A stretch of DNA of 63,975 nucleotides, counting the filler, from Octopus bimaculoides (lineage: Eukaryota), in NCBI RefSeq assembly GCF_001194135.2. It is 8 parts of 6 records of this genome, joined end to end, with 100 filler letters (N's around TTAATTAATTAA, not from the genome) between each part and the next. Parts side by side here need not be neighbours in the genome. Positions count along the whole stretch, not along the records: positions 23,114 to 41,780 come from NC_069005.1; positions 41,881 to 46,930 come from NC_069007.1; 6 more parts are not named here. The stretch is one strand, 5' to 3'. The translations under genes were made by a program, and so were the position numbers. The notes below the pieces were generated by a model, which was given only the letters and a program-made list of their open reading frames with translations, did no database searches and was not told the origin of the DNA. Shown here piece by piece: positions 41,585 through 43,090 of this stretch (position 1 is its first letter; the number at the start of each line of letters is the position of its first letter).

Positions 41585-41631
41585 TTAGCGTCTGACCTGT
41601 TCATTGTAGGTTTCTAAATAAACAGAAATAC
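41585..41631 (-). CDS. Candidate terminal exon of the pacifastin-like gene
   Basis: Acceptor ttgattttattag, phase 1, gives (G)ISVYLETYNEQVRR-stop, with AATAAA on the - strand near 40960. An alternative acceptor at 40733 (ttttcgttgacag) gives (G)IRNADPE-stop at 40708. An exon hidden in the 41781-41880 gap cannot be excluded. Confidence 0.35.
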
Positions 41632-42105
41632 CTAATAAAATCAACATTTATCATCTTACAGTTTCTTTTGTCTCTTCATTGATTGTATTTTTTAATTTTT
41701 TTTAATTTGTTATATTAATATATTTGTCTGCATGTGTTTACTTTATGCGCATTTCAGTATTATGTATATATGTCATGTATNNNNNNNNNNNNNNNNNNNN
41801 NNNNNNNNNNNNNNNNNNNNNNNNTTAATTAATTAANNNNNNNNNNNNNNNNNNNNNNNNNNNNNNNNNNNNNNNNNNNNGAAAAGCAGAGGACGAAAAG
41901 GTAAGTAAAGAATTGAAAAGAAAGACGGAAAAGAAGAAGATAGAAAAAGAAGATAAAAAGGAAGAAAAAAGAGAAGAGAAGAAGGAAGAAAAAGAATGAA
42001 TGGAACACAGCAAGAAATGATTATAAAAGAAAATGATTAAAACTGGTTAGTAGATTAATAGGAATGTGAGGATCTGTTCCATGGAACTTGAGAAGAATCC
42101 TTTAC

Positions 42106-42231
42106 CTTTAGGTCCACAGAATATTTCAGTACAGATAACAAATCCTTGCTTTCCACAAGTACATGTGTTACAATCATCTTTGAAACTCTTCCCGACTGGA
42201 TAAACTTTTCCCTTGTATCTGCAGACATTCA
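42106..42231 (-). CDS. Pacifastin/VWC-like six-Cys domain, exon 2
   Basis: Acceptor aataatcag, donor G|gtaaag, symmetric phase 1-1, 126 nt. Encodes VNVCRYKGKVYPVGKSFKDDCNTCTCGKQGFVICTEIFCGPK, matching C..C-N-x-C-x-C-x3-G-x3-C-T-x3-C of pacifastin domains. Confidence 0.9.
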
Positions 42232-42973
42232 CTGATTATTGGTAATTGATCGATAAAAGAATAAAAGAGAAGAACGAGAACGAGAGAATGAAATAAATAA
42301 ATAACGAAAGAAAGAAATCAAGAAAATACAAATTGAATTAAAACGGAAATCAAGAAAGGAATTAATAAAGAACGACAAATATTGAACGACAGAGACAAGT
42401 GAGAGATAAAAGAAAGACAGAAAGAAAGAGAAAAGAAGATCTGATAAGAAGGGATTGATAGAGAGATAGACGGGAAAAAGGTTTTATATATCCGATTTTC
42501 CGGTTCACTTTATGAAATGTTGTTTCCCGCTCTTTCGCAGGAAATGAAAGTGTGTCGTTCATGGAACAAATTTTGCTAGAACAAAGGTCAGAGCTTTGTG
42601 AAGTGACTCAATATTCCAGGGGACCCGCAGATTACTACTGGATAAGAACTTTCCTCTTGTTTGGAATAAATTAGCGACTAATACCAAAGACGTCATATTA
42701 GTCAGTTTTATCACATTCTCTGTCAGGCTCAATTTCCTTCAGAACTTCGTTGAGAGCACGCGTTGTCTGTGGAGCGCTCAACCACTTTGCACGTTATTTT
42801 CACGAGTCAGCTGTTCGGTTGATCGGATCAAGTGGAATACTGGTCGTCCTAACCGACGGACTGCCAGTTACCACAGAAAACTTCAGCTCTCACACTTCCT
42901 ACTGTTACACGGAAACCATTTGTAAACACTCAAATAAGTAAAAGAGAAATCTATGATTTCATCAACTCTTTAC

Positions 42974-43025
42974 CTGCTGCAGCGAAAGCCAAGTAGAGGC
43001 AGAATACGGTGAGATATTTCAGCAT
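42974..43025 (-). CDS. Pacifastin-like peptide, exon 1 (signal peptide)
   Basis: ATG at 43025 gives MLKYLTVFCLYLAFAAA, then G|gtaaag (phase 1). Basic n-region, hydrophobic core and A-x-A end. Splices in frame to 42231. Confidence 0.85.
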
Positions 43026-43055
43026 GTCTTCGAAGTTTGCTCCCGGTTGAGACAA

Positions 43056-43090
43056 CTAGTGAGTCTTTGGAAGTGTTTTAGTCTTTTATA
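43056..43090 (-). promoter_or_regulatory. TATA box plus initiator of the pacifastin-like gene
   Basis: TATAAAA on the - strand at 43090-43084. An initiator-like TCACT has its A at 43060, 30 nt from the first T of the TATA box and 35 nt upstream of the ATG. Confidence 0.7.

What the first reader, a model, noticed from the sequence alone, without database searches (positions are those of the whole stretch)
41585..43090. Compact, TATA-driven secreted single-domain pacifastin-like peptide gene missed by the ORF track
Seen: TATA box, initiator, a 17-aa signal-peptide exon and a phase 1-1 exon join into MLKYLTVFCLYLAFAAA-VNVCRYKGKVYPVGKSFKDDCNTCTCGKQGFVICTEIFCGPK plus a short tail, about 70 aa in total. 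Known: pacifastins (MEROPS I19) are canonical serine-protease inhibitors characterised mainly in arthropods, usually as multi-domain precursors with 9-12 residues between C1 and C2. Here the spacing is 16, with a VWC-like C-x-Y-x-G-x-x-Y-x-x-G start. Inference: a stand-alone cephalopod inhibitor or defence/venom-gland peptide with a tissue-specific promoter.
Basis: partly seen in the sequence, partly recalled or inferred. Interest (0 to 1): 0.75.

Follow-up and report, generated by a model that had tools for sequence, protein, structure and literature searches.

The report
Multi-domain octopus pacifastin precursor gene
This is a real, spliced octopus gene for a protein with a predicted secretion signal and at least two (likely four) small cysteine-rich pacifastin modules that likely block serine proteases; it is an ordinary new member of a family already known from molluscs, not the single-domain peptide first proposed.

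Summary
The gene is real, but it is not single-domain. TATA box, signal-peptide exon (43025-42974) and module exon (42231-42106) are present, and contigs from two likely-RNA runs splice them. The same contigs splice exon 2 to a second six-Cys module on unplaced contig C53929. Two more module exons probably follow (inferred), giving signal peptide plus four modules with RKKR sites after modules 2 and 3. Annotated Octopus orthologues carry two modules. The 16-residue C1-C2 spacing is the published 'Ancestral' pacifastin type, common in molluscs (PMC13388995); pacifastins are reported from octopus posterior salivary glands (PMC7693380). At least 150 related modules occur in this genome; the scan noted related arrays earlier in another genome (e1-9505985). 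Likely function: canonical serine-protease inhibition, untested; module 1 has an atypical P1 Glu. Worth noting: duplicated exons 3 and 4 differ at 26/141 sites, their flanking introns at 5/232. New member of a known kind.

The parts
43083..43090 (-). TATA box (TATAAAAG), 65 nt upstream of the ATG
   Evidence: sequence; function inferred
43026..43060 (-). predicted 5' UTR of exon 1, from an initiator-like A at 43060
   Evidence: spliced contigs reach to about 43052-43054
42974..43025 (-). exon 1 coding part: 17-residue predicted signal peptide, phase-1 donor
   Evidence: spliced to exon 2 in X5 and X6 contigs; 87.5% identical over 16 aa to orthologue P0001
42232..42973 (-). intron 1 (742 nt), holding a dispersed repeat at about 42866-42701
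42106..42231 (-). exon 2: pacifastin-like module 1 (six Cys, C1-C2 spacing 16, P1-P1' Glu-Ile), symmetrical phase 1-1
41881..42105 (-). start of intron 2. The gene continues outside the window: exon 3 (L033 928-788, contig C53929, junction seen in RNA-type contigs), exon 4 (L033 497-357, inferred), exon 5 (L005 5420-5304 on C27, module 4 followed by a stop, inferred)
41781..41880 (.). pack joint; not genome sequence
41585..41613 (-). the apparent 'short tail' exon: not part of the gene; lies in a dispersed repeat on C25

Best explanation
The gene is spliced and encodes a predicted secreted precursor with at least two and likely four 'Ancestral-type' pacifastin modules, one per phase-1 exon, which likely act as canonical serine-protease inhibitors. 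Shown: promoter-like elements, exon 1-2 and 2-3 junctions, fold-compatible six-Cys module. Inferred: exons 4 and 5 join the transcript; a furin-type convertase cuts at RKKR after modules 2 and 3, releasing a two-headed peptide (modules 1+2) and modules 3 and 4; each module offers its C5-Thr-P1-P1'-x-C6 loop to a protease active site as an uncleavable substrate. Module 2 (P1 Lys) and module 4 (P1 Arg) would target trypsin-like enzymes; module 1 (P1 Glu; Lys in the O. sinensis orthologue) and module 3 (P1 Thr) would have other targets or be weak. The likely setting is an exocrine secretion such as the posterior salivary gland, where the peptides would restrain the gland's own proteases or prey and microbial proteases.
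For: Junctions in X5 and X6 contigs, which hold 286 and 465 nt 3' of exon 2; exons 3+4 = 282 nt and 3+4+5 = 399 nt. All module exons are phase 1-1 with related upstream introns (74-99% over about 115 aligned nt). Orthologues P0001 and P0003 have the same signal peptide and two modules. Pfam Pacifastin_I above cut-off for module 1. Best PDB sequence hits are locust SGPI inhibitors (E 1.4e-5). AlphaFold model pLDDT 93.8 overlays on SGPI-1 (rmsd 1.0 over 31 columns) and SGTI (0.9 over 30). Paralogues built the same way (signal exon plus one module per exon) have Lys/Arg at P1 in 14 of 23 modules and Thr at P2 in 23 of 23, against Lys/Arg in 12 of 49 modules of the long tandem arrays (p = 0.004, modules not independent). 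Pacifastins are reported in O. vulgaris posterior salivary gland proteomes (PMC7693380, passages and Table S4 rows). A peptide listed from the O. vulgaris ink proteome (in-silico digest of an identified protein) is identical to part of a paralogous module at C27:21043209. Summed contig depth in X1 reaches about 7.7e5 on exon 2 against 38-131 on the flanks (the tool calls this a poor measure of expression).
Against: No activity was tested; the passages of PMC13388995 that I read rest on computed models and report no inhibition assay for the Ancestral type. Modules 2, 3 and 4 fall below the Pacifastin_I cut-off (26.4, 24.6, 13.2 bits against 27.9) and modules 2 and 4 lack the Asn after C2. The model fits von Willebrand factor/mucin modules as well as pacifastins (rmsd 1.3 over 36-37 columns; top VIA-align rows are MUC5B and fibronectin type I, Z 5.3-5.7, pacifastin Z 4.0), and no Foldseek match reached E 0.001. 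Exons 4 and 5 were not seen in reads; donors of exons 3 and 4 (GTTATG) are weak. The O. sinensis model has two modules, not four. No tissue is known for any run, and the salivary-gland pacifastins of PMC7693380 could not be matched to this gene (no sequences found in the part of the supplement held).
Confidence: 0.68

Rival explanations
1. The modules have been recruited as non-inhibitor venom or defence peptides that bind other targets in prey or microbes (ion channels, membranes), with the pacifastin fold used only as a scaffold.
For: Exons 3 and 4 differ at 26 of 141 sites and their flanking introns at 5 of 232 (p = 5e-8); 18 of 19 changed codons change the residue. Conserved introns with divergent exons are described for snake toxin genes (PMC2474615, abstract). 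Atypical P1 residues (Glu, Thr); several modules are strongly basic. PMC6891600 (passages) leaves open whether venom pacifastins are inhibitors or channel modulators.
Against: dN/dS between the two exons is 0.23/0.16, not significantly above 1 (p = 0.78); intron homogenisation by gene conversion or an assembly effect would give the same contrast. Protease inhibitors also diversify fast at their loops. Thr at P2 and basic P1 residues are kept across the family.
Confidence: 0.17
2. It is a small matrix or adhesion protein made of VWC/fibronectin-type-I-like modules (as the 'kielin/chordin-like' label of the orthologues implies) that binds collagen, mucus or growth factors rather than proteases.
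For: VWC score at the cut-off (27.8 against 27.6); fold matches to VWF, mucin and fibronectin modules; PMC13388995 links the Ancestral type to matrix proteins; database names.
Against: VWC matches cover only profile positions 1-37 to 1-42 of 57; the C-terminal CCxxC half (motif recalled) is absent; no accessory matrix domain; RKKR sites suggest release of peptides; module 1 scores much higher as pacifastin.
Confidence: 0.11
3. One reading: a stand-alone single-module peptide of about 70 residues.
For: Exons 1 and 2 are as described. A minor splice form that skips later modules cannot be excluded, since contigs drop rare variants.
Against: The tail is on another chromosome; 2 of 2 contigs that span exon 2 continue into module 2; there is no dibasic site between modules 1 and 2; both orthologues have two modules.
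Confidence: 0.03

Closest known systems
'Ancestral' pacifastin-like domain class (Rodriguez-Aguilar et al. 2026, PMC13388995)
   Same: Six-Cys scaffold, C1-C2 extension of 13-20 residues rich in Gly and aromatics (16 here), C-N-x-C core, Gly in the C4-C5 loop, P1 Lys or Glu; Mollusca 109 of 394 proteins; 67.4% without accessory domains.
   Different: That paper finds lower processing potential in molluscs (OR 0.52) and calls cleavable linkers an arthropod feature; this gene has RKKR after two modules and a C14 paralogue has KR before 6 of 9 modules. The words octopus and cephalopod do not occur in its main text; its supplement was not examined.
Arthropod pacifastins, MEROPS I19 (locust SGPI-1/SGPI-2/SGTI, PMP-C; Pfam PF05375)
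   Same: C2-C6 core sequence and fold; signal peptide on exon 1, domain-coding exons, clustered paralogues, multi-domain precursors with basic cleavage sites (PMC2689174, passages).
   Different: C1-C2 spacing 16 instead of 9-12, forming an extra N-terminal hairpin; P1 Glu in module 1; a seventh Cys in two linkers; activity unproven.
Octopus orthologues XP_036370410.1 (O. sinensis, 143 aa) and CAI9742245.1 (O. vulgaris, 113 aa), named 'kielin/chordin-like' or 'protease inhibitor'
   Same: Same signal peptide; module 1 is 84-85% identical; a run of basic residues follows module 2 in O. sinensis.
   Different: Annotated with two modules; P1-P1' of module 1 is Lys-Ile (O. sinensis) or Glu-Lys (O. 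vulgaris) against Glu-Ile here.
Coleoid posterior salivary gland pacifastins (PMC7693380; Ruder et al. 2013 cited there and in PMC6891600, not read)
   Same: Secreted pacifastin-domain proteins of octopus.
   Different: Identity with this gene not established.
VWC domain (PF00093) / VWF and mucin E-type and fibronectin type I modules
   Same: N-terminal hairpin plus three-stranded sheet; C-x-Y-x-G-x-x-Y start.
   Different: Only the first six Cys are present; the second VWC sub-domain is missing.

Membership tests
Pacifastin, Ancestral type (PMC13388995) | Six-Cys scaffold with C1-C2 extension of 13-20 residues | tested here: met
   16 residues in module 1; six aligned Cys invariant in 42 of 42 sequences
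Pacifastin, Ancestral type (PMC13388995) | Asn after C2 and Gly in the C4-C5 loop | tested here: met
   Met in module 1. Asn is absent in modules 2 and 4 and the Gly is absent in module 4.
Pacifastin, Ancestral type (PMC13388995) | Pacifastin fold with N-terminal beta-hairpin (TM-score at least 0.5) | tested here: met
   Model strands 2-5, 8-11, 15-18, 21-25, 31-33; TM 0.67/0.77 to 2xtt_A and 0.66/0.80 to 2f91_B (E-values weak, as expected for 41 residues)
Pacifastin (PF05375, MEROPS I19) | Pfam Pacifastin_I above gathering score | tested here: met
   Module 1 42.5 against 27.9; modules 2-4 are below it
Pacifastin (PF05375, MEROPS I19) | Disulfides C1-C4, C2-C6, C3-C5 | not tested
   Bond pairs are not given in the model output; only the overlay on solved pacifastins was seen
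Pacifastin (PF05375, MEROPS I19) | Canonical inhibition of serine proteases through the P1-P1' loop | not testable with these tools
   Loop pattern C-T-x-x-x-C present; needs an enzyme assay
Conventional (arthropod) pacifastin | C1-C2 spacing of 9-12 residues | tested here: not met
   16 here; consensus from PMC2689174
VWC domain / kielin-chordin | Complete ten-Cys VWC domain with C-terminal CCxxC sub-domain (feature recalled) | tested here: not met
   Profile coverage 1-37 to 1-42 of 57 in all modules and both orthologues; exon 2 splices into the next module 3 residues after C6
Coleoid venom-gland pacifastin | Expression in the posterior salivary gland | tested here: inconclusive
   Transcript present in 3 of 4 runs laid, tissue not given; published gland entries could not be matched by sequence

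The most novel reading that the evidence does not exclude
Octopuses have independently turned Ancestral-type pacifastins into cleavable poly-peptide precursors of a secretory gland, built by one-module exon duplication, with exons diverging far faster than their introns as in venom genes. This gene would release a set of peptides with different reactive-site residues (Glu, Lys, Thr, Arg), two of them possibly tied by the extra linker cysteines. That would contradict the view that proteolytic liberation of pacifastins is an arthropod innovation and supply the first testable inhibitors of the Ancestral type, including a Glu-P1 pacifastin.
Probability: 0.3. Interest if true: 0.55.

Novelty: new member of a known kind. 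Interest (0 to 1): 0.3.

Why it matters
It corrects the gene model (an assembly gap and a pack joint hid the later exons) and shows that the 'kielin/chordin-like' label on the Octopus orthologues is misleading. The family and the long-loop architecture are already described. What remains of value: small, synthesizable modules with which to test whether Ancestral-type pacifastins inhibit proteases at all, a P1 residue that differs between close Octopus species, cleavage sites that sit poorly with the arthropod-only processing model, and a hint of fast exon evolution.

Tried and rejected
Single-domain model: rejected. Module of a large upstream VWC protein: rejected, since both spliced contigs begin in exon 1's predicted 5' UTR; the nearest upstream Cys module is 41 kb away and only weakly VWC-like. 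Read support for exons 4 and 5 and the 3' end was not obtained; only exon 2 with short flanks was laid. Raw-read run X11 gave 0 laid of 12.9 million records, which the tool marks as no test; 11 listed runs held next to none of the words and no holder is on record as RNA: not used as evidence of tissue specificity. No complex with a protease was folded, so there is no verdict on binding. Protein searches returned no annotated protein of this exact gene from this species among the hits I inspected (mapped all 180 fetched proteins on the loci; only P0001 and P0003 hit this gene at 72% or more); this is weak evidence of absence. dN/dS above 1 was not significant. Literature searches: pacifastin+octopus (8 papers), +mollus (28), +coleoid (6), +cephalopod (6), kielin+octopus+gland (2), pacifastin+glutamyl endopeptidase (0); none of the listed titles concerns this gene. 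Ruder et al. 2013 and the Fingerhut et al. gland proteome (name recalled) were not read. The PMC7693380 supplement was cut when stored and the PMC13388995 supplement was not opened; either may list this gene's orthologue. My signal-exon scan of paralogues required a TATA box, so their TATA boxes are not an independent count.

Full report
Observation. The minus strand holds TATAAAAG at 43090, an initiator-like A at 43060, an ATG at 43025 and a 52-nt exon coding for 17 mostly hydrophobic residues, followed by a GT donor. A 126-nt phase 1-1 exon at 42231-42106 codes for a six-Cys module that scores 42.5 bits on Pfam Pacifastin_I (cut-off 27.9) and 27.8 on VWC (cut-off 27.6). This part of the finding is correct and well beyond chance.

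The tail is an artefact. The window is a pack, and a joint lies at 41781-41880, inside the finding's span. The gene's stretch maps to G000:C27; the stretch that holds 41585 maps to C25 and is a dispersed repeat.

What the transcript does. Four runs were laid on exon 2 with short flanks. X5 and X6 each gave one contig covering the exon with no differences and loose ends at both splice sites. The 5' loose end is exon 1; the 3' loose end matches the start of a second six-Cys module on the unplaced 1079-nt contig C53929 (L033), which would fit the 2761-N gap after exon 2 (placement inferred). X1 (another organism code, contigs 90-100% alike) covered the exon with summed depth up to about 7.7e5 against 38-131 on the flanks. 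X11 gave no reads and counts as no test. RNA status of X1, X5 and X6 is the tool's guess, but spliced junctions argue for RNA. The contigs hold 286 (X5) and 465 (X6) nt 3' of exon 2. C53929 carries two 141-nt phase 1-1 module exons in tandem, and C27 carries a 117-nt module exon with a stop directly after its sixth Cys 3.5 kb further on. The sums 282 and 399 nt fit these lengths, and the introns upstream of all four module exons are related. So two modules are shown and four are likely. Modules 2 and 3 are followed by RKKR, a furin-type site by established knowledge, and then by a seventh Cys; no dibasic site separates modules 1 and 2.

Relatives. The nearest proteins are two Octopus models with the same signal peptide and two modules each, 84-85% identical in module 1 and named 'kielin/chordin-like' or 'protease inhibitor'. 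A search of 50% cluster representatives with one of them gave 767 proteins at E 0.001 or better; of 10 looked up, 5 clusters carried names, all molluscan. In G000, 150 of 150 scored candidates (244 found) matched module 1 at E up to 1. They fall into long single-exon tandem arrays (C1, C4, C9) and genes with one module per exon: a neighbour 10 kb downstream (signal exon plus 2 modules), C27:21.04 Mb (signal exon plus 5, then 2 more), C27:16.44 Mb (equal to XP_014789945.1, labelled Octopus bimaculoides) and C14:55.04 Mb (signal exon plus 9 modules, 6 preceded by KR). These paralogue models are my predictions, except the annotated one. The exon-per-module genes carry Lys or Arg at P1 in 14 of 23 modules and Thr at P2 in all 23; the arrays carry Lys or Arg in 12 of 49 (only fetched loci were counted, and modules are related).

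Structure. An AlphaFold model of module 1 from a 42-row alignment has mean pLDDT 93.8, with a hairpin (2-5, 8-11) ahead of a three-stranded sheet. It overlays on locust SGPI-1 and SGTI with rmsd 1.0 and 0.9 over 30-31 columns and on VWF and mucin modules with rmsd 1.3 over 36-37 columns; no match reached E 0.001. VIA-align ranks MUC5B and fibronectin type I modules first (Z 5.3-5.7) and a pacifastin at Z 4.0. By sequence the top 11 PDB hits are all pacifastins. The fold is thus shared with matrix modules and does not prove function.

Evolution. Exons 3 and 4 are a recent tandem duplication. They differ at 26 of 141 exon sites but at 5 of 232 flanking intron sites (p = 5e-8); 18 of 19 changed codons alter the residue, and P1-P1' changes from Lys-Arg to Thr-Leu. 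dN/dS is 1.4 and not significantly above 1. P1-P1' of module 1 also differs among species: Glu-Ile here, Glu-Lys and Lys-Ile in the orthologues. This resembles the pattern described for venom genes (PMC2474615, abstract), but intron homogenisation could produce it too.

Mechanism. Shown: splicing, multi-module architecture, membership of the fold. Inferred: secretion, cleavage at RKKR, canonical inhibition through the loop between C5 and C6, where P1 sets specificity (PMC2689174 passages; PMC13388995). Modules 2 and 4 would be anti-trypsin; modules 1 and 3 have atypical P1 residues. I put this at 0.68, a non-inhibitor venom or defence role at 0.17, a matrix role at 0.11 and the single-domain model at 0.03.

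Known context. PMC13388995 (abstract, parts 1-3 of 11, section 11 and passages read) defines an Ancestral architecture with 13-20 residues between C1 and C2, counts 109 mollusc proteins, and lists Glu among ancestral P1 residues; it reports lower processing potential in molluscs. PMC7693380 (passages, two Table S4 rows) reports pacifastins in three protein groups of the O. vulgaris posterior salivary gland. PMC10142993 (passages) lists an in-silico peptide of an ink-proteome protein that equals part of the C27:21043209 module. PMC6891600 (passages) shows processed venom pacifastins in an assassin bug. PMC5554399 (one passage) lists pacifastin among cephalopod salivary products.

Verdict. A real gene with a wrong first model; a new member of a known kind. 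Interest 0.3, carried by the cleavage sites, the P1 variation and the exon-intron contrast.

Noticed in passing
L006 8890-1019 (G000:C27:4080.9-4073.1 kb, minus strand): A second pacifastin gene 10 kb downstream with its own TATA box, a 15-codon signal exon and two module exons (P1 Arg and Met), both above the Pfam cut-off.
   Followed up: partly
L041-L043 (G000:C14:55.035-55.046 Mb): Predicted gene with a signal exon and nine one-module exons, six of which start with KR: a candidate poly-inhibitor precursor.
   Followed up: partly
G000 C1:156.34 Mb, C4:95.6 and 97.5-97.7 Mb, C9:24.8 Mb, C11:41.46-41.60 Mb: Long arrays of related modules, in open frames of up to 1375 codons on C4 and as many separate exons on C11; most array modules lack a basic P1.
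   Followed up: partly
L044 (G000:C27:21043209): Part of this paralogous module is identical to a peptide tabulated for the O. vulgaris ink proteome (PMC10142993).
   Followed up: partly
P0004: A partial protein labelled Clostridium perfringens on an 866-nt contig consists of pacifastin modules resembling the octopus exon-per-module genes; probably animal contamination of a bacterial record. No hit at 72% or more in the loci tested.
   Followed up: partly
L037 (G000:C66376, 207 nt): Scrap contig 99% identical to exon 3 and its upstream intron: an allele or an unmerged copy.
   Followed up: partly
window 44590-44690: A short tandem repeat upstream of exon 1 recurs upstream of exon 5 (seen by eye); local scaffold order may be wrong.
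   Followed up: no
window 42866-42701: Dispersed repeat in intron 1 with at least 38 copies at about 80% identity.
   Followed up: no
L015 1238-1116 (G000:C27:4133.3 kb): A lone VWC-like module 41 kb upstream on the same strand (VWC 18.8 bits, below cut-off).
   Followed up: partly
window 62468-63112 (-); 26171-26680 (+); 28713-29492 and 33460-34614 (-): Transposon remnants in other stretches of the pack: the first matches Pfam Transposase_1; the others look like transposase and LINE fragments by recalled motifs, and the two of them scanned had no Pfam hit.
   Followed up: partly
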